From NCBI GenBank assembly GCA_014691105.1, contig GCA_014691105.1_4891.1: a DNA stretch of 52,976 nt; one strand, 5' to 3'. This document shows, in pieces, positions 3,170-44,022 of the stretch. The stretch is from a phage. Position 1 is the stretch's first letter, and every line of letters starts with the position of its first letter. The notes under the pieces are model-generated. The model saw nothing but the letters and a program-made list of their open reading frames with translations, was not told the origin of the DNA and ran no database searches. A program made the position numbers and the translations under genes.

Positions 3170-3796
3170 TTACTCTTCAGTTTCTTGTGCTTCAGTTTCA
3201 GGTTTTTTGCCAGTTACTGATTTGCCATCAGTCACTTTACCAGATTTTACATCATTACGGTAATAGGACATATAGGATTGGACAACACGTTTTGCCCTAA
3301 TATCATCCGCTTCCATCCCACAGGCTTTCATGGCATCGGCCAGCGCCAATTTGGAATCTTCTTTGTCCATCAAATTGTAGTCCTTGAATACTGCATAGCA
3401 GGTATCTTTGGTTGACGGACCGGATGAAGTTTTGCGGGTGCCACCAGCAGATGCTCGTGTTGTCGCAACTTTGACCTCTTCAACTTCCAGTTGGTTAAGC
3501 TCATCAAATAGGGCTTTCACCAGCACTTCTTTTGAGTCTTTGACACTTACAGAACTTTCATCATTAAGGGACTTAATCATCTTAATGATCTGGTTATTGG
3601 CAAAGTACTGCAGGCTATCCATCTGCACTACAATAGTCCCAAGACTTTCAGTAGTCAGACCAGATTTTACAGACTCGACAGAAAAAGCGGAAGTCAGGTA
3701 AACATAGTTGATAGTAGTCATTGATGTATCCTCGTCAATAGAATTTTGGTAAGCGCCAATCCCTGGCAAGTAAGTCCAAACATGACAACTTGACAA
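3170..3796 (-). CDS. hypothetical protein (up to 208 aa)
   Basis: ORF track; probable start at an internal Met (MTTINYVY...). Confidence 0.5.
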   Translation of the reverse strand: MSSCHVWTYLPGIGAYQNSIDEDTSMTTINYVYLTSAFSVESVKSGLTTESLGTIVVQMDSLQYFANNQIIKMIKSLNDESSVSVKDSKEVLVKALFDELNQLEVEEVKVATTRASAGGTRKTSSGPSTKDTCYAVFKDYNLMDKEDSKLALADAMKACGMEADDIRAKRVVQSYMSYYRNDVKSGKVTDGKSVTGKKPETEAQETEE

Positions 3797-3814
3797 AAGT
3801 TGTCATGATTGAAA

Positions 3815-5456: not shown

Positions 5457-6131
5457 GTGATTAATATAATCTTTGCAATGGGCCAAAATGGGGAATTCGG
5501 GTTGTCTCCGGAGTTTATGAAGCATCAGGTTAACTCGTGCAAGACCATGGAAGAGGTCCGTGCGCTTCCTAAATCGGGTCTGCCCTGGAAATGTCCGTCA
5601 GACATGCTCTTTTTCAGGACTATGACTAATTCAGTTGCGACAGAACCAGGCTATAATGCATATCAGCAACTACGTGGACAGTTCCCACAAGACCAGTTGC
5701 GAAACATGATAGCAGATGTAACGGTAAAAATGGTAGGACATAGTGTATTGTTAGCCGGTCGTAACACGTATATGACTATGAGTCTGCCTATGTCAGCCCA
5801 CAGAATACTGCTGCCGGTATCTCGCCAGATTATGGCTTCAGAAGGCTACAATAATTTGGGTGAGATGGCAGCAGACCTTGAATCCAGAGGTACTGACGTC
5901 TGGATTGTAGGCGGTGCCGAATTGATACTTTCGGCCCTTGAAGAACACGCAAAAGACTTACTCCGTATCGACAACATGTTTATCAGTACGATCAAGCAAT
6001 CAGGTCCAAGTGATATTTTAATGGATTGTAGCAAATTAATGATGTACATTGATAGCGACTTTACATATAATGATGAATATGTTGATAACAAACAAGTTCT
6101 GATACAACGGTACAGGAGTTTACATAAATGA
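5457..6131 (+). CDS. dihydrofolate reductase-like protein
   Basis: DHFR-like blocks IIFAMGQNGEFG, GLPWKCPSDMLFFRTMT, VLLAGRNTYMTMSLPMSAHRILLPVSR and VWIVGGAELI, with an insertion after the first strand. Confidence 0.55.
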   Translation: MINIIFAMGQNGEFGLSPEFMKHQVNSCKTMEEVRALPKSGLPWKCPSDMLFFRTMTNSVATEPGYNAYQQLRGQFPQDQLRNMIADVTVKMVGHSVLLAGRNTYMTMSLPMSAHRILLPVSRQIMASEGYNNLGEMAADLESRGTDVWIVGGAELILSALEEHAKDLLRIDNMFISTIKQSGPSDILMDCSKLMMYIDSDFTYNDEYVDNKQVLIQRYRSLHK

Positions 6132-6634
6132 ACATCATAATCGAGGGTCCGGATAATGCTGGTAAAACTACAGTTATTGAGTTCCTTAAATCTCATACTG
6201 GCCGCAGTGTTACTCATAATACTGTTGACAAAGATCCCGAATCGGTCATGGCTAAACAGACCAAAGAAAACGCGTTGGAAGGCGATTGTATTTATGACCG
6301 TAGCGCTGTTATATCTGAGTATATCTATTGTCTGGTTCTTCAACGTACGCCTGTCATCAATATTAATGTATCACATGTAGCAGATATGTGCGACAACGCC
6401 ATCGTTATCTTTTGTATGCCGCCTGTTGAAAAGGTACTGGCAACTACAAAAGACGAGATGCCTGGTGTTGTGGAAAATCTTGAGGCGTTATACAATCAGT
6501 ATGACAACCTCATTGACGAACTGGTTATGATGAGTAAGCAGTTCTTCATTTACGACTGGACTGTTGAAGAAGATGGTCCTGAAGCAGTTCTAGAATATAT
6601 CAACGAACGTATTAATAAGGAGTGGAACAAATGA
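6128..6634 (+). CDS. P-loop nucleoside/deoxynucleoside monophosphate kinase (thymidylate-kinase-like)
   Basis: P-loop GPDNAGKTT followed by a DRS motif (YDRSAVISEY); ATGA overlap with the DHFR stop. Confidence 0.5.
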   Translation: MNIIIEGPDNAGKTTVIEFLKSHTGRSVTHNTVDKDPESVMAKQTKENALEGDCIYDRSAVISEYIYCLVLQRTPVININVSHVADMCDNAIVIFCMPPVEKVLATTKDEMPGVVENLEALYNQYDNLIDELVMMSKQFFIYDWTVEEDGPEAVLEYINERINKEWNK

Positions 6635-7332
6635 GCCCAGTATACAATACCTCAGTCACGCTGTCCGCAACCGTAGGGGGCGTCAACAAGACTGTTACTG
6701 TGGGTTCAACTAACCCTAACCTATCAGGCGAAGACCTGTTGCGCATGGCTAAACGTGCTCTTGAAGATAACGAAGTGACTGGTACTGAAGGTGTCAGCAT
6801 TGAGATTAACATCGAGGGTTATGAAGAAAGCATCAGCATTGCTACTTCTGACGATGAAGCTTGTGAACAGCTAAAGTTCAACGATGAGCTGGAATATCGT
6901 ACCGGTGAGATGTTCAGCAGTGCGCTAAACTGGTACTTGTACAAGGCTTCAAACTACGCTGGCGCTCCTATGTCAGACCGTATGTTAGCTGACATGTCTG
7001 CACGTGAAATTGCTAAAGGCTGGGCGCATGTACAGATGCTGCAGGAGCGTATCTGCAAGCTGAAAAGCTGCAATAAAGACGCGTCTGAGCTTATTACTGC
7101 CTATAAGCGACAGATTAACGACCTGCAGCAACTGATGGGCAAACGCGCTGAAGAATATGAGGCTGAGATTCGCAGTCTTAACGGCACAGCTGTTGCTAAC
7201 AACCGTGCTTTCAGCGAAGAGCGTAAAGCGCTTATCGCCCAGCGTGACGCTGAAAAACGTCGTGCAGACGACCTGGCAGACCGTCTCAACTTTATCCGTA
7301 AGCATATGGATGCTATGGAAGGGGTAATCTGA
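6622..7332 (+). CDS. hypothetical protein (coiled-coil C-terminus)
   Basis: ORF track; start may be the Met at 6631. Confidence 0.5.
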   Translation: MEQMSPVYNTSVTLSATVGGVNKTVTVGSTNPNLSGEDLLRMAKRALEDNEVTGTEGVSIEINIEGYEESISIATSDDEACEQLKFNDELEYRTGEMFSSALNWYLYKASNYAGAPMSDRMLADMSAREIAKGWAHVQMLQERICKLKSCNKDASELITAYKRQINDLQQLMGKRAEEYEAEIRSLNGTAVANNRAFSEERKALIAQRDAEKRRADDLADRLNFIRKHMDAMEGVI

Positions 7333-7622
7333 TGGACCTGTTCGATATGGTCGAACATCCTGAAGTAAACGGCTTGGCGGAAGCTAAGCCTTTTAACTGG
7401 GATGAATTCGTAGCAGGCAAACCTGCTGTAACCCACAACGGGCAGATTGCATATTACGGAGGCCATAGCGAACATCCGATGTGCACTCACCTGTACAACG
7501 CTATAACAACCATAACCGACGAAAACGTTATTAAATACGGAAAAGAAGTAATGTCTTTTCTTGTAGATGAACGCGGTTACTTCGAAGGTAAATGGTTCCC
7601 GTTTCTGGTAGAAATGGCATAA
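7332..7622 (+). CDS. hypothetical protein
   Basis: ORF track; ATGA overlap with the upstream gene. Confidence 0.5.
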   Translation: MDLFDMVEHPEVNGLAEAKPFNWDEFVAGKPAVTHNGQIAYYGGHSEHPMCTHLYNAITTITDENVIKYGKEVMSFLVDERGYFEGKWFPFLVEMA

Positions 7623-34629: not shown

Positions 34630-36597
34630 TTAGTGCGCCTCTGCCCAGTTACTTTCTATCTTAGCATCAGTAAGAACAGGTACACGAAGCGGTAGCACAG
34701 TTTCCATGACCCGTACGAAATCGTAGAATCCATCTTCTGCTTGCTTACCAGTTGGTAGAGAGAAGTTAAGCTCATCGTGTACCGTCAGGCGAGGTACGCC
34801 AATCACGTCGAAGTAACCGTCTTCATACCCTTTCAGCATTGCAGACTTCATCTGGTCTGCTGACGACCCTTGCAGCACTCGGTTGATTGCCTTGTGGGTG
34901 TCTGCCAGTTTAATGTTTGGGCCATACTCCTGACGTGCTTCTTCAAATGGCAAAGGCATCTTCCCGAATCCACCACGTTTTGGGACCCATTTGTTGAACC
35001 ACGTTTTCCGGCCCATAAAGGTTTCTACATACCCCTGGCTATAACATAAATCTTCATAATGCTTCATGGTAGCGCCAATGAATGGTGCACCCTGATGGTA
35101 CGCCTTCAGAACAGGTTCTGCTTCTTCAGGCGTCATTGCTAACTTACGGGCAAGAGCATTAAGCATCATGCCGTATAACAAACCAAAGTTGATGGTCTTA
35201 GCCGGTTTACGCTCTATAACGTGACCTGAGGCTTCCTTGATAATATCGACCATAACATTGTGGTAATCTGCTTCCGGGTTAGCCGCGAAAATTGCTCGTA
35301 ACTCATCAGCGCCCGGGCCGACTGCAAAATGCGCCATGAATCGATATTCAATTTGGGCGTAGTCTGCTGATCCCCATCGGTGTCCGACATCCGGTACGAA
35401 ACAAGCACGAAGGAGTGGTCCCAGTATTTTGTGTCTAGACGGTATATTCTGCAGATTAGGGTCAGATGAGCTAAACCGACCACTAACGGTTCCACCGTCA
35501 TCACCGCGCATTTGATGGAATTGACCGTGAAGGAAGCCATTTGTATTCATCCCCAATATATAGCCACGAATAAACGTGGACTGGATTTTCTCATAAGACT
35601 TAATCTCAGACACCAGTTCCGCAAACGGATGGTGCAAGCCTGCTAAGAAGTCCGCTGTAAACGACGGATTACCCGCCGCTGTTTTGAAGTACTCCAGACC
35701 TAAATGGTCAAATGCAAGTGCTAAATCAGGACCGGAGTTAACGTTAATGTTAAAGCCAATCTGGTCTTTAATCTGCTGGTGCATTTTCCTTATTTCAGCG
35801 CTAAGCGTATCATCCGCCTCTTTGGCCTTGTCAAGGTCAACACGCACACCTGCAAAACGCATCTTAAGCATTAATGGAATGAGCTTGCACTCCATATAGA
35901 ATACGTCTGTTAAACACCAGCGACTTAACAATGGCCACTGGGCTTTGATAATGTGTATTGGTAAGTCGGCGTCAGATTCAGCATAGTAACCCACAAGACG
36001 AGGAGGTGTTTTGTAGATGTACTTTCTGGCTTCACCTGTTGGCTTACAGCCATAAGCGTCTGAAATCCATTGGTACATCTCGGCTGAGTCTTTACCTTCG
36101 CCTACATACTTTCGTCCAAGTCCTTCAAGTGCAACACGCGCGCCTGGGTCGAGTAATGCTTCCGCGAATTGTACATCCATGCACAATCCTTTAACTTCCA
36201 CGCCTTCTGCTGCAAGCCAGCCCAAGTCATATGTGATGTTAGCACCGACTTTAACTTGGTTAGGTCGCGAGAGTTCGAGCCGAAGCCAACCAAGTACTTC
36301 CTCAGCTGGAAGGTTATCCTCTTCGCCGAGCTCGTGTCTGATTGGGTAGTAAGCTTTGAAGCCGTTGTCCGTAGCGATACTAACTCCAACGATATGACCC
36401 TCCCTCCTGGCCCAACCACTACCATTTGTATCCATCCCTGGGTCGTATGTTTCACAGTCAAGACCGATAATCTTTGCAGAAGACAAGTCCGGGTAATGCG
36501 CGCGCGGCCGCCATCCAGTATCCCTGACGTATGGTATAGGACGGTTGATAGGTTTAACATTCTTTGCACCTTCAAAGCTATCGAATAAAAAGCTCAT
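34630..36597 (-). CDS. family A DNA polymerase with 3'-5' exonuclease domain
   Basis: Exo motif GLDCETYD; polymerase motif A DYAQIEYRF, motif B RKPAKTINFGLLYGM, motif C VHDELNF. Confidence 0.9.
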   Translation of the reverse strand: MSFLFDSFEGAKNVKPINRPIPYVRDTGWRPRAHYPDLSSAKIIGLDCETYDPGMDTNGSGWARREGHIVGVSIATDNGFKAYYPIRHELGEEDNLPAEEVLGWLRLELSRPNQVKVGANITYDLGWLAAEGVEVKGLCMDVQFAEALLDPGARVALEGLGRKYVGEGKDSAEMYQWISDAYGCKPTGEARKYIYKTPPRLVGYYAESDADLPIHIIKAQWPLLSRWCLTDVFYMECKLIPLMLKMRFAGVRVDLDKAKEADDTLSAEIRKMHQQIKDQIGFNINVNSGPDLALAFDHLGLEYFKTAAGNPSFTADFLAGLHHPFAELVSEIKSYEKIQSTFIRGYILGMNTNGFLHGQFHQMRGDDGGTVSGRFSSSDPNLQNIPSRHKILGPLLRACFVPDVGHRWGSADYAQIEYRFMAHFAVGPGADELRAIFAANPEADYHNVMVDIIKEASGHVIERKPAKTINFGLLYGMMLNALARKLAMTPEEAEPVLKAYHQGAPFIGATMKHYEDLCYSQGYVETFMGRKTWFNKWVPKRGGFGKMPLPFEEARQEYGPNIKLADTHKAINRVLQGSSADQMKSAMLKGYEDGYFDVIGVPRLTVHDELNFSLPTGKQAEDGFYDFVRVMETVLPLRVPVLTDAKIESNWAEAH

Positions 36598-37592
36598 CAG
36601 CCCCCTCTCACATACGCAATTACAACTGTACGAGTTGAGTTTTCCATTTTGAGCGCCTGACTACCAAGCCCTATTCTTTCCATGCCTTTAGCCAGTTTAC
36701 TCATCTGACTAATAACACAGTTGAACGGTTTACTAAACTTAGTCGACTGGAACTTAATGTCGACGGACATCTTAGGAATAATCTTGTCTGGTAAGTCTGC
36801 TTTTGCTGTTGACTCGCCAGTTATCTCCAGAATGGCTTGACCTTCGTCATACCCAGTAAGCTGGTCCATTACTTCCAGGAACTCAGGAGTGATGGCCTGC
36901 ATATCCATTTCCATATTGAAGAACTTCGATACGTCTGGCCATTTGGCTGCTAGTACCGGAGCATCCATCTGTACACCATCCGCAAAGCCGAAGAACATCT
37001 GGCCGCGGGCGTAACCTACACTTGTGGGTTCCATCTTCAGCTTAACCAGAGCCTCAAGCATTGGTTTGGCTATGGCACATTCAAATTCAAAATCTACATT
37101 CAACTTCTCGCGTATCATATACTTACCGTTAGTTGCGTAAGCATAACCATCGCGCAGAAGTAAAGATGTTGCCCATATCTGCGGTGCTTCGTTAGGTACC
37201 CATTTGGCTAAGGCAGTTAATACCGGGAGTAATTCGCCATGCGCTGAATACCAGTTGTTAACTGTAGCAAGTGGTGGTATTGGTTCATTAAGCGCTTGCA
37301 TTCTTGTTTTAAGTACACCTGCTGTGACTGTGAGGTTTCCAGCGGCTGTAATGTTAAAAGTAATCTGTTCAGTTCTTGCCGCATTAACGGCCTTACGAAA
37401 TGATTCAGCATCCACTTGCAGGTCTGGGAATCCTTTACATGGCGCTCGTAGTAATACGTTCTTGTAGTACGAATGGATTGTTCCGTCTGCAATCCATATT
37501 TTGCCCATAAGACCACTATCAGTATACTTGATGGGACGAGCTTGTTGAACGGCAGTCTGTATTTGTTTGGTGTCATAGTTAAACTTGCTCAT
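36597..37592 (-). CDS. hypothetical protein, translationally coupled upstream of the DNA polymerase
   Basis: 331-aa ORF whose stop overlaps the polymerase start; no motif recognised. Confidence 0.45.
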   Translation of the reverse strand: MSKFNYDTKQIQTAVQQARPIKYTDSGLMGKIWIADGTIHSYYKNVLLRAPCKGFPDLQVDAESFRKAVNAARTEQITFNITAAGNLTVTAGVLKTRMQALNEPIPPLATVNNWYSAHGELLPVLTALAKWVPNEAPQIWATSLLLRDGYAYATNGKYMIREKLNVDFEFECAIAKPMLEALVKLKMEPTSVGYARGQMFFGFADGVQMDAPVLAAKWPDVSKFFNMEMDMQAITPEFLEVMDQLTGYDEGQAILEITGESTAKADLPDKIIPKMSVDIKFQSTKFSKPFNCVISQMSKLAKGMERIGLGSQALKMENSTRTVVIAYVRGG

Positions 37593-37622
37593 AGTATAAC
37601 GGGGCCTAAGCCCCGCTCCATC

Positions 37623-38507
37623 TTATACGGCCATTTGGAGTTTGATGTTTGGCATTGGTTTGTACTTCTCAACCATTGGCGTAACATCGGCAGGAGTGAA
37701 GTCAAACACTGACACGTCGTAAATTGCGTTAATGTCAGGACGACCTTCAAAGTTAGTGTCCAGTGTAGTATCAGAATTGCTTACGATACGTTGCAGGAAA
37801 ATCTTTGCCGCATCGATATGATTCTGATAGATATGATAATCACCCAGCGTAACAGTCATGTCGCCAACACCAGTACCCAGCTCAGCAGCAATGGTAATCT
37901 GCAGCATTTGATGCAACAGAATATCGTGAGGCAGACCAAGAATAACATCCGCGCTACGCATATGGAACATCAGCTCTAATTCATTACGGTTGTTAATGAA
38001 CAGCTGAAAACCATGGTAACAAGGCGGAAGGGCCATGGCATCCATCTCTTGTGGGTTCCACGCCGTAATGTACGCCCGGCGGTCGGTAGGCTTAACCTTC
38101 AGCGTTTCAATAACGTCTTTAAGCTGGTTAGTAAGAACACCATTCTTATAGAATGGCTTAATCCATTGCACGCCGTACACAGGACCTAAGTCACGGTTGT
38201 CTGGCGTACCCCAACGTTTGTTTGCGTCCTGCAGGTTACCTTCCCACCAGTTGCAGCCAAAGCCTTTGAGCGTGTCGACGTTTGAAATGCCGTTGATAAA
38301 GCAGTAAAGCTCAGCAGCAACAGCTTTGATGTTAACAGGTTTAAACACCGGCACCATCAGTTTGTTGTCGTTGAAAGCCAGTTTAAACGCCGTACCAAAA
38401 CAACGGCGGGTACCAACACCTGTACGGTCTACAACATCCTCGCCTTTACGTAAGATAAAAGAAATGATGTCGCTGTAAAGAGAATCGACAGTGCTGTATG
38501 TTTTCAT
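37623..38507 (-). CDS. thymidylate synthase superfamily enzyme, probable dCMP C5-hydroxymethylase or methylase
   Basis: TS-like blocks DRTGVGT, LGPVYGVQW, TAWNP, catalytic Cys in ALPPCYHGFQLF, RSADVILGLPHD and GDYHIYQNH; Asp replaces the TS Asn in LGLPHD (TS has LGLPFN). Confidence 0.7.
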   Translation of the reverse strand: MKTYSTVDSLYSDIISFILRKGEDVVDRTGVGTRRCFGTAFKLAFNDNKLMVPVFKPVNIKAVAAELYCFINGISNVDTLKGFGCNWWEGNLQDANKRWGTPDNRDLGPVYGVQWIKPFYKNGVLTNQLKDVIETLKVKPTDRRAYITAWNPQEMDAMALPPCYHGFQLFINNRNELELMFHMRSADVILGLPHDILLHQMLQITIAAELGTGVGDMTVTLGDYHIYQNHIDAAKIFLQRIVSNSDTTLDTNFEGRPDINAIYDVSVFDFTPADVTPMVEKYKPMPNIKLQMAV

Positions 38508-39100
38508 TAAAACAGTTCCTTTTGAGCCGGGTTAACGTGTGCGTCGATAATGGCCTGGATGTCAGGTGCTTTCCATCCTTCAGGCTTAACAATATCCTGA
38601 CTAGACTTATGCTTGCTGTTGCTTGCATCAGGCTTAGCGCGTTCTTTCGCCATGTTAGCAGCCTGTACCGCATCCCATGCTGCGTCAAGTGGCCAGTTGT
38701 TGTTTGCGCACCAGGTAATCAGGTGGATAATTAACTGGGCCAGACGGTCGCAATGAGTGTCTTCAGTATCCTTAACGTATACAATAAGGCCATCAGCATC
38801 GAAACGGTCCATAAATCCGCAGGGCGTAGTTAACAGAATCGGATACTCAAATTCGTTGGTGAACCATGCAGTCTGGTCGTACAGGTATAACGTACCTGCA
38901 GCGATGTAAATTAAATCTACAATACCGTCTAAGAAGCCAGCTTTGTCGCCGTCTTTCTTAGCTTGCTTAATTTCTTCCATCTCCTCAATAAGACGGTCGT
39001 AACGAAGCTTGAACTCAGGTTTACCGCCTTGACTAACAGGCTTGAGGTCAAACTTCTCATGAAAAGCGGTAACGCCTGCAGCAATTTTACTGAATCGCAT
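38507..39100 (-). CDS. MazG-like nucleoside triphosphate pyrophosphohydrolase
   Basis: All-alpha NTP-PPase signature RLIEEMEEIKQA...DGIVDLIYIAAG; coupled to the TS-like gene. Confidence 0.55.
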   Translation of the reverse strand: MRFSKIAAGVTAFHEKFDLKPVSQGGKPEFKLRYDRLIEEMEEIKQAKKDGDKAGFLDGIVDLIYIAAGTLYLYDQTAWFTNEFEYPILLTTPCGFMDRFDADGLIVYVKDTEDTHCDRLAQLIIHLITWCANNNWPLDAAWDAVQAANMAKERAKPDASNSKHKSSQDIVKPEGWKAPDIQAIIDAHVNPAQKELF

Positions 39101-42674: not shown

Positions 42675-43553
42675 TTATTTTAAGGAAAGTTTAACGGGCT
42701 TCTCATCCTGTGGGAAGACATCAGCGGGGCGATAATCATCACAAGCTGCTAATTGTTCTTCGATTGTTTCGAGCTCTTTCTGGTGCTTGTTGCAATACCA
42801 CACTTTGCCCTGAAGCGGTTTACTGTAATGGCAGGTTCTGCAGTTCCTGTCAGGCATTGCTCCTTTGTGGCACAAGTGGTGGTACTCACACATTCCTGGC
42901 TTGCACTCCCACCAGATAGGCGATTCAGAAATCTTCGGCATATCCAAACCAGATTCCGCATATACAACAGCCTCCGCTTTACTCAGTTGTATGTCGCTTT
43001 CCAGTAAGTCAATCTCGACCACTTCAAAATACATCTCGTCGGTGTTCTTGTTGATTGCAATATACACAGCTTGGTTAAGCTTAAGCTTCCGCATGTATAC
43101 CTGCATCTGGGCGTAGTGTACCGGCTTACTTGCTTTAACAGACTTGAGCTTGACTAACTCTTTAAACGACTTATCGCCATGCGTCTTGAATTCAGCAAGT
43201 GCCCATACGCCTTTGTATTTGATCACACAGTCACAAGACCCAGAGAAGATGCCATTGAATTCATGTATGCGCCATTGCTTACCAGTCTTAGGATTGACGT
43301 CCAGCACTTCGTCACATACTGAACGAAGCCACTTTATAATTCTGCTTTCTTCAAGGTTACCACGTTCAAACAGACGAAGTTGCTTAGCCGTAAACTTCTC
43401 CTTGAACGACCAGTGCAGTACATGCCAAAGATAGCGATAGCAGTTGTGCCCTATCTGCGATGCTCCAAGATGCCCGCGTCGTTCTTCTCTTTCGTGGGCT
43501 TCGACTATCTTGATGTCAATACGTTTCTGCAGGTCGTCAAACGGACTGGACAT
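42675..43553 (-). CDS. PD-(D/E)XK nuclease of the Cas4/RecB-like exonuclease family
   Basis: D...EFK core (CDCVIKYKGVWALAEFKT), QhxxY motif (YAQMQVY) and a C-terminal cysteine cluster; track ORF extends to 43670 but the Met at 43553 is the likely start. Confidence 0.6.
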   Translation of the reverse strand: MSSPFDDLQKRIDIKIVEAHEREERRGHLGASQIGHNCYRYLWHVLHWSFKEKFTAKQLRLFERGNLEESRIIKWLRSVCDEVLDVNPKTGKQWRIHEFNGIFSGSCDCVIKYKGVWALAEFKTHGDKSFKELVKLKSVKASKPVHYAQMQVYMRKLKLNQAVYIAINKNTDEMYFEVVEIDLLESDIQLSKAEAVVYAESGLDMPKISESPIWWECKPGMCEYHHLCHKGAMPDRNCRTCHYSKPLQGKVWYCNKHQKELETIEEQLAACDDYRPADVFPQDEKPVKLSLK

Positions 43554-44022
43554 TGTTAAACTCCTCAACACTGAATTCATCGTACACAATGTTATGTGCC
43601 CACAAATGAGCGACGGCATTTGCCATGCTATCCTTCCATTTGGATTGTGAAGCTGTATGCGCCAATGCAACTACACGTACCAGGCTAAGGTTGGCTATCA
43701 GCATGTCAGCACAATGTTCGCACGGCGGGTAGGTTATGTAGATGGTAACCGGGCCTAAAGAAGGAGTGTCTAACTCCCTCCTTATATTAGCTAAGGTGTT
43801 TATCTCGCTATGAATAGTTAGAGCGTTCTTGAGGCTATTAGGCACTATTCTTATAGAGTCTAACTGCGTAGGCAGACCGTTATATCCAGTGGAAATAATA
43901 CGCTTGTTCTGGTCAACAAGAACGCTACCGACTTGACGTTTCGGGTCCTTCGACCAGCTTGCAACTTCACAAGCTATGCGCATAAACCGCCTGTCCCACT
44001 TGTCCATCTTCTTCTTTTGCAT
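43537..44022 (-). CDS. dCMP deaminase
   Basis: Cytidine/dCMP deaminase zinc motifs HSE (LTIHSEINTL) and PCEHC (YPPCEHCADML). Confidence 0.8.
   Translation of the reverse strand: MQKKKMDKWDRRFMRIACEVASWSKDPKRQVGSVLVDQNKRIISTGYNGLPTQLDSIRIVPNSLKNALTIHSEINTLANIRRELDTPSLGPVTIYITYPPCEHCADMLIANLSLVRVVALAHTASQSKWKDSMANAVAHLWAHNIVYDEFSVEEFNNVQSV

What the first reader, a model, noticed from the sequence alone, without database searches (positions are those of the whole stretch)
36597..37592. Unassigned 331-aa protein translationally coupled to the DNA polymerase
Its stop overlaps the polA start and it lies between the TS-like gene and polA. Position suggests a polymerase accessory factor (processivity or clamp-like), but no motif is recognisable by eye.
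Basis: inference. Interest (0 to 1): 0.4.

Follow-up and report, generated by a model that had tools for sequence, protein, structure and literature searches.

The report
Phage sliding clamp paired with PolA
The 331-residue protein is a very divergent phage copy of the bacterial DNA sliding clamp (the ring that keeps a polymerase on DNA). It most likely tethers the phage's own DNA polymerase through a short peptide at the polymerase's N-terminus, and databases already label the gene this way by homology.

Summary
A 331-aa ORF lies at 36597..37592 on the minus strand, between a thymidylate-synthase-like gene and a family A polymerase (PolA). Its TGA stop shares one base with the PolA ATG.

The protein is a three-domain beta-clamp (DnaN) homolog:
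- AlphaFold model: pLDDT 89.5.
- Foldseek: all top PDB hits are bacterial beta clamps (E about 1e-19, full length).
- Family profile against E. coli DnaN: hhalign 97.8%.

Pfam, NCBIfam and single-sequence PDB searches miss it. PHROG 947 and many GenBank records already call it "DNA polymerase processivity factor" or "beta subunit". The window is a BP63-like Rosemountvirus genome.

New here:
- In 77 of 80 diverse viral contigs the clamp gene sits directly upstream of PolA; the other 3 contigs end at the clamp.
- Every such PolA begins with a conserved clamp-binding-like peptide: DA[IL]G[LMF]FWED in the mainstream family, MSFLFDSFEG in this lineage.
- The closest PolAs without a detected clamp gene carry the canonical bacterial motif at the same spot (QFPLF, QPPLF, QLPLF).
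- No clamp loader was detected in the window.

Function as a PolA processivity factor is inferred, not shown. Ordinary in kind, with a testable mechanistic twist.

The parts
36597..37592 (-). Gene for a 331-aa phage beta-sliding-clamp homolog: three DnaN-like domains, roughly residues 1-115, 116-228 and 229-331
   Evidence: ORF. PHROG 947 'DNA polymerase processivity factor' 5e-47, full length. AF2 pLDDT 89.5, pTM 0.81, with a three-fold repeated secondary-structure pattern. Foldseek PDB top 50 are all DnaN clamps, E about 1e-19, TMq 0.72-0.80. Profile vs PDB: 20/20 hits are beta clamps, best 7e-7. hhalign vs E. coli DnaN 97.8%, E 6e-12, residues 2-329 vs 1-366.
36595..36599 (-). Stop/start overlap TGATG: clamp TGA (36599-36597) and PolA ATG (36597-36595) share one base
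   Evidence: Sequence. The same 1-nt geometry occurs in 19 of 74 regex-matched mainstream PolAs, a 4-nt overlap in 24, and 50 of 74 starts lie within -11..+2 nt of the clamp stop.
36601..36609 (-). Shine-Dalgarno-like GAGAGGGGG for PolA, inside the last codons of the clamp gene
   Evidence: Sequence. Relatives have AAGGAG or GAGGGA at the same place. Function inferred.
34630..36597 (-). Family A DNA polymerase with 3'-5' exonuclease, 655 aa: the inferred client of the clamp
   Evidence: Pfam DNA_pol_A 1.5e-63 and DNA_pol_A_exo1 7e-8. ExoIII-to-motif-A spacing is 207 aa against 305 in T7 gp5, so there is no thioredoxin-binding-size insertion.
36568..36597 (-). PolA residues 1-10, MSFLFDSFEG: candidate clamp-binding peptide (LF core, then acidic and aromatic residues)
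   Evidence: Conserved as MSFLF[DE]xFE in lineage relatives and as MLFENF in the most distant one. It is positionally equivalent to DA[IL]G[LMF]FWED in 77/77 mainstream clamp-linked PolAs and to canonical QFPLF, QPPLF and QLPLF in relatives with no detected clamp. Binding is inferred, not shown.
36517..36567 (-). PolA residues 11-27, AKNVKPINRPIPYVRDT: basic, proline-rich linker between the peptide and the exonuclease domain
   Evidence: Sequence. A comparable K/R/P-rich linker is present in clamp-bearing relatives and absent in relatives with no detected clamp. Flexibility inferred.
36484..36516 (-). PolA residues 28-38, GWRPRAHYPDL: conserved anchor (W-x-x-P-x-x-x-P-D-L) where the exonuclease domain begins
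   Evidence: Aligned across window, VpKK5, Stenotrophomonas phage, NP1, Seurat, M6, CN1, RHph_I65 and Pan1.
37600..37619 (-). GGAG followed by a GC-rich hairpin (CGGGGC-TTAG-GCCCCG), 7 nt upstream of the clamp ATG. There is no Shine-Dalgarno sequence next to the ATG.
   Evidence: Sequence. A hairpin with different stem sequences is present in ZCSE2, L090, L091 and L087. 3 of 7 consensus pairs show compensatory changes in 5 sequences. Role (split ribosome-binding site, attenuator or RNA stabiliser) not established.

Best explanation
The gene encodes a phage-specific, highly diverged homolog of the bacterial beta sliding clamp (DnaN), and it most likely acts as the processivity factor of the phage's own family A DNA polymerase.

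Proposed mechanism:
1. The two proteins are made from adjacent, overlapping genes.
2. The clamp, probably a head-to-tail dimer ring like beta, encircles duplex DNA.
3. PolA docks on it through its extreme N-terminal peptide (MSFLFDSFEG). The Leu-Phe pair would sit in the hydrophobic cleft between clamp domains II and III.
4. About 17 basic, proline-rich residues tether the peptide to the exonuclease/polymerase body.
5. Because the genome encodes no clamp loader, loading must use the host DnaX complex, or occur without a loader (threading or a labile interface).

Shown here: the fold, the homology to DnaN, conserved synteny with PolA, the conserved N-terminal peptide, and no clamp loader detected in the window.

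Inferred: ring formation, peptide-pocket binding, stimulation of processivity and the mode of loading.
For: Fold and homology
- AF2 model pLDDT 89.5.
- Foldseek PDB top 50 are all DnaN clamps over the full length. BFVD hits are phage beta clamps.
- The family profile hits only beta clamps in PDB sequences. hhalign to E. coli DnaN gives 97.8%, end to end. PHROG 947 matches.

Link to PolA
- The clamp gene is immediately upstream of PolA, on the same strand, in NP1, Seurat, VpKK5 and a Stenotrophomonas phage, where the clamp is only 20-26% identical.
- The same arrangement holds in 77 of 80 IMG/VR contigs; the other 3 contigs end at the clamp gene. It also holds in the window's own lineage.
- 50 of 74 regex-matched PolA starts lie within -11..+2 nt of the clamp stop.

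N-terminal peptide
- All 77 mainstream PolAs carry M-R-x-D-[AS]-[ILV]-G-[LFM]-F-W-[ED]-D, beginning 3-5 residues after the nearest start codon in the 74 regex-matched ones. This fits the phi-x-[L/M]-F core and acidic flank of the published motif Q-phi-x-[L/M]-[F/L] (PMC11139829).
- The window's lineage keeps L-F plus an acidic and an aromatic residue.
- Related PolAs with no detected clamp gene have the canonical bacterial motif at the same position: CN1 QFPLF, M6 QPPLF, RHph_I65 QLPLF, DSL-LC04 MSLF.
- More distant PurZ-associated PolAs have neither an N-terminal extension nor a clamp.

Pocket
- Pocket-equivalent columns are more conserved than the rest (2.31 vs 1.74 bits, Mann-Whitney p = 0.013). 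The most conserved column of the family aligns to subsite-I P242.
- The family consensus keeps R152, T172, L177, P242, N320, V360, M364 and R365.

Other
- Positions equivalent to the E. coli dimer-interface residues L273 and L108 (my recollection of the interface) are hydrophobic: F/Y and I/M.
- PolA lacks a T7-type thioredoxin-binding insertion.
- Precedent: E. coli Pol I is reported to bind and be stimulated by beta (PMC3201878; PMC11139829 Table 1).
Against: - No experiment on any member of this family was found in the searched literature.
- The window's peptide lacks the Gln and the aliphatic position 2 of the canonical motif. Only the LF core and the position are shared, so calling it a clamp-binding motif rests on homology of position.
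- The peptide could bind another partner, such as the primase-helicase, the SSB or the host beta clamp.
- No clamp loader was detected in the window, and it is unknown whether the host loader accepts a clamp this divergent. The window's clamp has diverged at subsite-II equivalents (Q138, V293, Q296, Y327, V328).
- Ring formation was not modelled.
- The window protein has pI 8.24, against a family median of 5.6. By the Kazlauskas-Venclovas criterion this leans toward a non-ring DNA binder.
- Pocket conservation is only modestly significant, and the alignment of domain III is of low confidence.
- PolA has its own Shine-Dalgarno sequence, so translational coupling is not required.
- In two close relatives the gene is split or truncated (rivia: two CDS; SPHG1: 214 aa). 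This could be sequencing error, or a hint that the gene is dispensable.
Confidence: 0.7

Rival explanations
1. It is a PolA processivity factor but not a closed ring. Like herpesvirus UL42/UL44, it would bind DNA directly through a basic face as a monomer or open dimer, so no clamp loader is needed.
For: No clamp loader was detected in the window or is annotated in BP63. The window protein is basic, pI 8.24. Kazlauskas & Venclovas linked high pI and absence of a loader to non-ring viral clamps (PMC3201878). The related phage Pan1, which does encode a DnaX-like loader subunit, shows that loaders are kept where needed.
Against: The mainstream family, whose annotated and scanned regions also show no loader, is acidic: median pI 5.6, with only 7% above 7.5. 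Close relatives of the window protein have pI 5.8-7.7. Hydrophobic residues at the positions of E. coli dimer-interface L273 and L108 are conserved. The whole three-domain protomer superposes on ring-forming DnaN.
Confidence: 0.2
2. The clamp works mainly with host machinery rather than with the phage PolA. It might replace or poison host beta to redirect or shut off host Pol III, or titrate host clamp-binding proteins.
For: The mainstream family consensus keeps many E. coli pocket residues: R152, T172, L177, P242, N320, M364, R365. With no phage loader, some interaction with the host DnaX complex is likely. Phages are known to target host beta, for example Twort gp168 (PDB 7evp appears among the fold hits).
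Against: Synteny with PolA is strict: 77 of 80 contigs, and the other 3 end at the clamp gene. The PolA N-terminal peptide changes together with the clamp lineage: mainstream vs Rosemountvirus-like vs no detected clamp. The phage encodes its own polymerase, primase-helicase, helicase and SSB.
Confidence: 0.07
3. The clamp is chiefly a DNA-tracking platform for other phage functions, such as late transcription activation (as T4 gp45 does, and as phage Mu does with host beta) or recruitment of DNA-modification or repair enzymes. PolA would be only one client or none.
For: T4 gp45 and host beta in phage Mu activate late transcription (PMC2988020, PMC12867686, listed). In the four annotated distant loci examined, a DNA-modification gene (DpdA-like transglycosylase) sits immediately upstream of the clamp, or one small ORF away in Seurat. 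A 96-aa window protein (7332..7622) starts with the clamp-motif-like MDLFD.
Against: The only universally linked gene is PolA. The upstream neighbour differs between lineages: DpdA vs a TS-like gene. No transcription factor with a clamp motif was identified. The scan of other window ORFs for terminal motifs gave mostly spurious ORFs.
Confidence: 0.05

Closest known systems
Bacterial beta sliding clamp (DnaN) with Pol III and other clients that bind through the Q-phi-x-[L/M]-[F/L] motif
   Same: Same three-domain fold over the full length. Detectable sequence homology. The pocket-forming segments ATDGHRL, FPDY and the C-terminal strand have counterparts: ATNG/ATNN, WPD and RGxIxGxR. The partner polymerase carries a short terminal hydrophobic peptide with an LF core and an acidic flank.
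   Different: About 35-50 residues shorter, and 10-15% identical. Missed by the Pfam and NCBIfam DnaN models. The client is a family A polymerase, not Pol III. The motif lacks Gln (mainstream: A/S at position 1, followed by an invariant Trp; window: MSFLF). No cognate loader is encoded.
Phage PolA + polIII-beta homolog + DnaX-like loader subunit: Ma-LMM01 and RSL1 (Kazlauskas & Venclovas 2011, PMC3201878) and Pseudanabaena phage Pan1
   Same: A family A polymerase is combined with a beta-type clamp. Pan1's clamp belongs to the same HMM family (E 2e-26), and its PolA (38% identical to the window's) starts MVGLINGLFD.
   Different: Those phages have larger genomes (72 kb to over 150 kb) and encode a gamma/tau-like loader subunit. 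The window (53 kb) and the 40-60 kb Queuovirinae-type phages examined do not. In 2011, lack of clamps was described as typical of 40-140 kb phage genomes.
T4 gp45 clamp / gp43 polymerase / gp44-62 loader
   Same: A phage-encoded clamp tethers the phage's own replicase through a terminal peptide on the polymerase.
   Different: gp45 is a two-domain protomer that forms a trimer, the polymerase is family B with a C-terminal motif, and a dedicated loader is encoded. Here the protomer is three-domain DnaN-type and the peptide is N-terminal.
T7 gp5 with host thioredoxin
   Same: A family A phage replicase that acquires processivity from an accessory protein.
   Different: T7 uses a 76-residue thumb insertion (figure from my own knowledge) that binds thioredoxin. 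The window PolA has no room for it: ExoIII-to-motif-A spacing is 207 vs 305 residues. It is instead paired with a clamp homolog.
Mesyanzhinovviridae-type PolAs (M6, CN1) and Rhizobium phage RHph_I65 PolA
   Same: Same PolA clade (29-31% identity; relationship also noted in PMC11946847). Same N-terminal architecture: a short hydrophobic peptide, then the W-x-x-P-D-L anchor.
   Different: No clamp gene in the regions scanned, and the peptide is the canonical bacterial motif (QPPLF, QFPLF, QLPLF). This suggests use of the host beta clamp. That reading is inferred, not shown.

Membership tests
Beta sliding clamp (DnaN) superfamily | Single chain of three topologically equivalent beta-alpha-beta-beta-beta domains | tested here: met
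   The AF2 secondary structure repeats three times. Foldseek aligns the full length to DnaN structures with TMq 0.72-0.80.
Beta sliding clamp (DnaN) superfamily | Statistically significant sequence homology to DnaN | tested here: met
   Profile vs PDB: 20/20 hits are beta clamps, best E 7e-7. hhalign vs E. coli DnaN gives 97.8%, E 6e-12. The single sequence gives nothing.
Beta sliding clamp (DnaN) superfamily | Match to curated DnaN models (Pfam DNA_pol3_beta domains, NCBIfam dnaN) above threshold | tested here: not met
   No Pfam hit even at E <= 1. No NCBIfam hit for the window, NP1 or Pan1 proteins. This reflects divergence and does not contradict the fold.
Beta sliding clamp (DnaN) superfamily | Head-to-tail homodimer forming a closed ring around duplex DNA | not testable with these tools
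   Only a monomer could be modelled. Indirect support: hydrophobic residues at positions equivalent to E. coli L273 (Y248; family F, among the 30 most conserved columns) and L108 (M98; family I). The pI of 8.24 is atypical.
Beta sliding clamp (DnaN) superfamily | Hydrophobic peptide-binding cleft between domains II and III (subsites I and II as listed in PMC11139829) | tested here: inconclusive
   Pocket-equivalent columns are enriched in conservation (p = 0.013). P242, T172 and G174 equivalents are among the top 10 columns. The window protein differs at R152, N320, Y323, M364 and R365 equivalents, and the domain III alignment is weak. No coordinates were available for inspecting the surface.
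Beta sliding clamp (DnaN) superfamily | Client polymerase carries a clamp-binding motif Q-phi-x-[L/M]-[F/L] | tested here: inconclusive
   Mainstream PolAs have [AS]-[ILV]-G-[LFM]-F (no Gln) in 77/77 loci. The window has M-S-F-L-F-D, with only the LF core and acidic flank. Relatives with no detected clamp have the full canonical motif at the same site. Binding is untested.
Beta sliding clamp (DnaN) superfamily | Cognate AAA+ clamp loader (DnaX complex) | tested here: not met
   No DnaX/HolA/HolB-like or RFC/gp44-like protein was found in the window. The P-loop proteins are the primase-helicase, a dNMP-kinase-like protein, TerL and a Sak4-like protein, plus a chance-looking match at the C-terminus of one unassigned ORF. 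None is annotated in BP63. The host loader may substitute, which is untested.
PHROG 947 (phage 'DNA polymerase processivity factor') | Full-length match to the family HMM | tested here: met
   E 5e-47, residues 1-328 vs profile positions 2-351 of 368.
PCNA / T4 gp45-type trimeric clamps | Two-domain protomer of about 230-260 aa that forms a trimer | tested here: not met
   The protomer has three domains and 331 aa. All best structural matches are DnaN, not PCNA or gp45.
Herpesvirus UL42/UL44-type non-ring processivity factors | Clamp fold used as a monomer or C-shaped dimer with a basic DNA-binding face and no loader | tested here: inconclusive
   No loader, and pI 8.24 in the window protein. 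But the family median pI is 5.6 and the architecture is DnaN-type with three domains.

The most novel reading that the evidence does not exclude
A whole clade of phage family A polymerases is clamp-dependent through an N-terminal clamp-binding peptide.

- Members without their own clamp (M6/YuA-like phages, CN1, RHph_I65, DSL-LC04) use the canonical QxxLF peptide to ride the host beta clamp.
- Thousands of 40-60 kb phages, including this Rosemountvirus, carry a private, re-tuned clamp-peptide pair. It is insulated from competition with host clamp clients and works without a phage-encoded loader, either by parasitising the host DnaX complex or by self-loading.
- The Rosemountvirus/Loughboroughvirus lineage has re-tuned both sides a second time: subsite-II-equivalent residues on the clamp and the first half of the peptide.
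Probability: 0.35. Interest if true: 0.6.

Novelty: new member of a known kind. Interest (0 to 1): 0.4.

Why it matters
Taken alone, the gene is a divergent but recognisable phage beta clamp that databases already label by homology, so the identity adds little.

The context is what matters:
- The family is very large: 3,637 cluster representatives at 50% identity.
- It is always wired to a family A polymerase, a polymerase class usually thought of as clamp-independent or thioredoxin-dependent.
- The phages examined carry no loader gene.
- The polymerases carry a simple, conserved N-terminal peptide whose sequence tracks whether the phage has its own clamp.

This gives a directly testable model of how mid-sized phages achieve processive replication. 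It suggests that some phage PolAs hijack the host beta clamp. It also offers compact orthogonal clamp-polymerase pairs that could be useful as reagents.

Separately, the Asp177 thymidylate-synthase-like gene upstream offers a candidate for the unexplained cytosine modification reported for the sister phage S144.

Tried and rejected
- Pfam, NCBIfam and single-sequence phmmer against PDB gave no hit for the protein. Only PHROGs, profiles and fold comparison work.
- The search for related loci with the full-diversity alignment A1 failed because it has no conserved 7-10-column stretch. I replaced it with a mainstream-branch alignment, A2. The 80 loci therefore sample the mainstream branch, not the window's own lineage, which I sampled separately.
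- A multiple alignment with T7 gp5, meant to look for the thioredoxin-binding insertion, was unreliable in that region. I replaced it with ExoIII-to-motif-A spacing.
- A scan of all window ORFs for PolA-like or canonical clamp motifs at their termini returned mostly internal alternative starts or short ORFs not matched to BP63 genes. Only 7332..7622 (MDLFD) is an annotated gene.
- I considered co-folding the clamp with the PolA peptide as a fused chain.
- PCNA/gp45-type identity was rejected: three domains, and the best matches are DnaN.
- Recent capture of the host dnaN was rejected: 10-15% identity, and a shorter protein.
- The search for a phage clamp loader was negative.
- The genomes of the clamp-less controls were scanned only in part: 33-42 kb of about 60 kb for M6, CN1 and DSL-LC04, and 7 kb for RHph_I65 and the PurZ-associated phages. 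'Clamp-less' therefore means 'none in or around the replication module'.
Full report
OBSERVATION

The ORF is real and sits where the finding says, but on the minus strand: 36597..37592, ATG start, 331 aa. Its TGA stop (36599-36597) shares one base with the ATG (36597-36595) of a 655-aa gene at 34630..36597 (-). The minus strand there reads GAGAGGGGGCTGATG. That downstream gene is a family A DNA polymerase with a 3'-5' exonuclease domain (Pfam DNA_pol_A 1.5e-63, DNA_pol_A_exo1 7e-8). The upstream gene, 37623..38507 (-), matches Pfam Thymidylat_synt at 2e-62. The ATG at 36597 is the first start codon after the in-frame stop, and a Shine-Dalgarno-like GAGAGGGGG precedes it. The PolA N-terminus is therefore well defined. 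Translational coupling is plausible but not required.

CONTEXT

The window is essentially a complete genome of a BP63-like myophage (genus Rosemountvirus). It is 98% identical at the nucleotide level to Escherichia phage JEP7 and Salmonella phage BP63 across this region. In GenBank the gene is labelled 'DNA polymerase beta subunit' (including RefSeq BP63 gp54), 'DNA polymerase processivity factor' or 'hypothetical protein'. [quoted passage not shown] So the protein is unassigned only from the raw sequence. The homology-based label already exists.

WHAT THE PROTEIN IS

Searches with the single sequence fail:
- Pfam: no hit even at E <= 1.
- NCBIfam: no hit.
- phmmer against PDB sequences: no hit.

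Profile and structure methods are unambiguous:
- PHROG 947, 'DNA polymerase processivity factor', matches at 5e-47 over the full length.
- A profile of 15 family members hits 20 PDB sequences, all bacterial beta sliding clamps, with best E 7e-7.
- A 163-member family profile aligns end to end with E. coli DnaN: hhalign 97.8%, E 6e-12, residues 2-329 vs 1-366.
- The AlphaFold2 model is confident (mean pLDDT 89.5, pTM 0.81) and shows a secondary-structure pattern repeated three times.
- Its 50 best PDB matches are all DnaN clamps aligned over all three domains: E about 1e-19, TMq 0.72-0.80, 10-15% identity.
- The best matches among predicted viral structures are phage beta clamps.

The family is large. 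An exhaustive profile search found 3,637 cluster representatives at E <= 1e-3 and 527 at E <= 1e-30. Almost all are 310-335 aa, about 35-50 residues shorter than cellular DnaN.

IS THE LINK TO PolA REAL?

Yes, at the level of genome organisation.
- In four annotated phages whose clamp is only 20-26% identical to the window's (Pseudomonas NP1, Escherichia Seurat, Vibrio VpKK5 and a Stenotrophomonas phage), the clamp gene lies immediately upstream of PolA on the same strand. The stop and start overlap or abut in three of the four; NP1 has a 51-nt gap.
- Of 80 diverse IMG/VR contigs encoding a mainstream family member, 77 have PolA directly downstream on the same strand. The other three contigs simply end at the clamp gene.
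- In 50 of the 74 PolAs where a regular expression located the N-terminal motif, the PolA start lies within -11 to +2 nt of the clamp stop. Nineteen of them have exactly the window's 1-nt overlap.
- The window's own lineage shows the same order in metagenomic contigs whose clamps are 43-65% identical and in ZCSE2 at 81%. One contig has a small KilR-like gene inserted between the two.

A CANDIDATE INTERACTION SURFACE ON PolA

All 77 mainstream PolAs carry the conserved peptide M-R-x-D-[AS]-[ILV]-G-[LFM]-F-W-[ED]-D-x-P. In the 74 regex-matched ones it begins 3-5 residues after the nearest start codon. Gly and Trp are invariant in 58 distinct 15-mers. A basic, proline-rich linker of about 20 residues follows, then a conserved W-x-x-P-x-Y-L-P-x-L anchor where the exonuclease domain starts.

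The published consensus for beta-clamp-binding motifs is Q-phi-x-[L/M]-[F/L]. The LF moiety can bind on its own, and the flanks are typically acidic (PMC11139829). Pol II's motif is QLGLF (same source). The phage peptide [AS]-[ILV]-G-[LFM]-F plus an acidic flank fits all positions except the Gln.

The window's PolA begins MSFLFDSFEG:
- ZCSE2 (Loughboroughvirus; clamp 81% identical): MSFLFDGFEG.
- Relatives with clamps 61-65% identical: MSFLFDDFEG.
- The relative with a 47%-identical clamp: MSFLFEGFEN.
- The most distant relative (43%): MLFENF.

The element shared by both lineages is therefore [LMF]-F followed by an acidic residue and an aromatic one, at the extreme N-terminus and tethered by a flexible linker.

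CONTROLS

The window's PolA is most similar (44-51% identity) to PolAs of clamp-bearing phages: VpKK5, Variovorax VPv64 and Sulfitobacter M39. In the latter two I confirmed the clamp gene directly upstream (HMM E 7e-146 and 2e-110) and the N-termini MRFDAIGMFWED and MSRFDNIGLFWED.

The next tier of relatives (29-38% identity) splits.

Pan1 (Pseudanabaena phage, 72 kb):
- It has a family clamp (HMM E 2e-26).
- It encodes a bona fide DnaX-like loader subunit (TIGR02397, 4e-62).
- Its PolA starts MVGLINGLFD.

DSL-LC04, M6, CN1 and RHph_I65:
- The clamp HMM finds nothing at E <= 1 in the regions scanned: 33-42 kb for the first three, 7 kb for RHph_I65.
- Their PolAs start with host-type motifs at the same position, directly before the W-x-x-P-D-L anchor and without the long linker.
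  - CN1: M-QFPLF
  - M6: MSYL-QPPLF
  - RHph_I65: MKKPIVG-QLPLF
  - DSL-LC04: KTM-SLF

More distant PurZ-associated PolAs (VLCpiS6a, SH-Ab 15497, CJY) have neither an N-terminal extension nor a nearby clamp.

This pattern supports reading the N-terminal peptide as a clamp-binding element. It is canonical where only the host clamp is available and re-tuned where the phage brings its own. A canonical Q-phi-x-L-F within the first dozen residues, in at least two lineages (RHph_I65 and the related M6/CN1 pair), is very unlikely by chance. That judgement is my own estimate, not a computed statistic.

THE CLAMP SIDE

I mapped the E. coli pocket residues (subsites I and II as listed in PMC11139829) through the hhalign alignment.
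- Pocket-equivalent columns are more conserved than the rest: 2.31 vs 1.74 bits, Mann-Whitney p = 0.013.
- The single most conserved column of the family aligns to P242. The T172 and G174 equivalents are in the top ten.
- The mainstream consensus keeps the E. coli residue at R152, T172, L177, P242, N320, V360, M364 and R365.
- The window's protein keeps the equivalents of subsite-I T172, G174, P242 and V360, with conservative changes at three more (L177 to M, R246 to K, V247 to F).
- It differs at R152 (Q138; listed under subsite I) and at the subsite-II equivalents N320, Y323, M364 and R365 (V293, Q296, Y327, V328).

This parallels its PolA peptide, which keeps LF (the subsite-I anchor) but has lost the first half of the motif. 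I regard that co-variation as suggestive only, because the domain III alignment has low confidence.

Positions equivalent to the E. coli dimer-interface residues L273 and L108 (my recollection of the interface) are hydrophobic and conserved: F/Y and I/M. That is consistent with a dimer, but I could not model one.

NO LOADER

I examined the replication-module ORFs and the other ORFs of at least 90 aa against Pfam and PHROGs, and scanned all ORFs of at least 80 aa for Walker A motifs. None resembles DnaX, HolA/HolB, RFC or gp44.
- The P-loop proteins are the primase-helicase, a dNMP-kinase-like protein, the large terminase and a Sak4-like AAA_24 protein.
- One further Walker A match sits at the C-terminus of an unassigned ORF (3173..3802) and looks like chance.
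- BP63's annotation has no loader either.

Kazlauskas & Venclovas (PMC3201878) proposed that viral clamps without loaders tend to be basic, non-ring DNA binders. The window protein has pI 8.24, but close relatives have 5.8-7.7 and the mainstream family has a median of 5.6. That criterion therefore does not settle the matter. Loading by the host DnaX complex, self-loading and a non-ring mode all remain open.

PolA has no T7-type thioredoxin-binding insertion: ExoIII-to-motif-A spacing is 207 residues, against 305 in T7 gp5. This is consistent with a different route to processivity.

COMPARISON WITH WHAT IS KNOWN

The protein is a member of the beta-clamp (DnaN) superfamily by fold and by profile homology. 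It belongs to a phage-specific subfamily that PHROGs already names.

It differs from the textbook system in four ways:
- its client is a family A polymerase;
- the binding peptide is N-terminal and lacks Gln;
- the protomer is shorter;
- no loader is encoded.

The nearest described arrangement is PolA + polIII-beta + polIII-gamma in the large phages Ma-LMM01 and RSL1 (PMC3201878). Pan1 is a further example of that arrangement. That paper stated that 40-140 kb phage genomes typically lack clamp homologs, and this family shows otherwise.

I found no paper that describes this PolA-clamp pairing, the N-terminal motif, or any experiment on a family member. The search library is limited to open-access papers and preprints.

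VERDICT

The identity, a phage beta-clamp homolog, is ordinary and already annotated by homology. I therefore rate it a new (divergent, uncharacterised) member of a known kind, with moderate interest.

The added value lies in three things: the conserved clamp-PolA operon, the N-terminal clamp-binding-like peptide whose type tracks the presence of a phage clamp, and the absence of a loader. Together they give a concrete, testable mechanism.

My confidence that the fold is a beta clamp is about 0.97. My confidence that it acts as a PolA processivity factor through the N-terminal peptide is about 0.7.

SIDE OBSERVATIONS

1. The TS-like gene upstream has Asp where E. coli ThyA has Asn177 (RSADVILGLPHDI). 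The Asp is conserved in BP63, ZCSE2 and two metagenomic relatives, but one more distant relative has Asn. Position 177 dictates dUMP versus dCMP preference, and Asp is associated with cytosine-modified contigs (PMC8670742). S144, a sister-genus phage, has DNA that resists all C/G-containing restriction sites tested, and no responsible gene was identified (PMC7432712). The TS-like enzyme is therefore a candidate dCMP methylase or hydroxymethylase, possibly working with the adjacent MazG-like pyrophosphohydrolase, the dNMP-kinase-like protein and the dCMP deaminase.

2. A GGAG followed by a GC-rich hairpin precedes the clamp ATG, and there is no Shine-Dalgarno sequence next to the ATG. The hairpin is kept, with different stem sequences, in five diverged genomes.

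3. A 96-aa protein (7332..7622) begins MDLFD, which resembles the strongest consensus clamp motif, QLDLF.

Noticed in passing
window 37623..38507 (-); also L104 1284-2168, L090 3029-3961, L091 3039-3965, L001 37219-38103: The thymidylate-synthase-like enzyme has Asp at the position of E. coli ThyA Asn177 (RSADVILGLPHDI), the residue that switches preference from dUMP to dCMP (PMC8670742). The Asp is conserved in BP63, ZCSE2 and two metagenomic relatives, while the more distant L087 has Asn. The sister-genus phage S144 has cytosine-modified DNA with no gene assigned (PMC7432712). The enzyme may therefore be a dCMP methylase or hydroxymethylase, working with the MazG-like protein (38507..39100), the dNMP-kinase-like protein (6128..6634) and the dCMP deaminase (43537..44022).
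   Followed up: partly
window 37600..37619 (-), the intergenic region between the TS-like stop and the clamp ATG: GGAG followed by the hairpin CGGGGC-TTAG-GCCCCG, then 7 nt, then the ATG. No Shine-Dalgarno sequence lies next to the start. The hairpin is conserved with different stem sequences in ZCSE2, L090, L091 and L087 (3 of 7 pairs compensatory in 5 sequences). It has a U-rich tail in relatives but not in the window. It could be a split ribosome-binding site brought together by the hairpin, an attenuator/terminator, or an RNA-stabilising element.
   Followed up: partly
window 7332..7622 (+): A 96-aa protein of unknown function (its BP63 counterpart is annotated 'hypothetical protein') begins M-D-L-F-D, resembling the strongest consensus beta-clamp-binding motif, QLDLF. 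It may be a client or inhibitor of the phage clamp or the host clamp.
   Followed up: no
L095 17625-19607 (CN1), L094 19947-21941 (M6), L097 2399-4453 (RHph_I65), L093 19965-21830 (DSL-LC04): PolAs of the same clade from phages with no clamp gene in the scanned regions start with canonical bacterial clamp-binding motifs (QFPLF, QPPLF, QLPLF, MSLF). This suggests that these phage polymerases ride the host beta clamp. I found no description of this in the searched literature.
   Followed up: partly
L092 (Pseudanabaena phage Pan1) 17072-23009: Pan1 has a fuller replicase cluster: an epsilon-like exonuclease, a clamp of the same family (HMM 2e-26), PolA starting MVGLINGLFD, and a DnaX-like loader subunit (TIGR02397, 4e-62). 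This may show an ancestral or alternative state in which the clamp has a phage-encoded loader.
   Followed up: partly
L089 1138-1326: In the most divergent relative of the window's lineage, a 62-aa gene with a KilR Pfam hit is inserted between the clamp gene and PolA. Several mainstream loci also have insertions of 50-860 nt there.
   Followed up: no
Relatives of window 36597..37592: Salmonella phages rivia (MT074438) and SPHG1 (MW413353); Escherichia phage Seurat (L003 5835-6735): The clamp gene is annotated as two CDS in rivia, is truncated to 214 aa in SPHG1, and appears split or N-terminally shortened in Seurat (246 aa plus a small upstream ORF). These could be sequencing or annotation errors, or a hint that the gene is not strictly essential.
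   Followed up: no
L002-L005 (NP1, Seurat, VpKK5, Stenotrophomonas phage), upstream of the clamp gene: In these phages the clamp-PolA pair follows a 7-deazaguanine DNA-modification cluster (FolE, QueD, QueC, QueE, DpdA-like transglycosylase). In the window the same slot holds the MazG-like and TS-like genes. A nucleotide or DNA-modification module upstream of clamp-PolA seems to be a recurrent layout.
   Followed up: no
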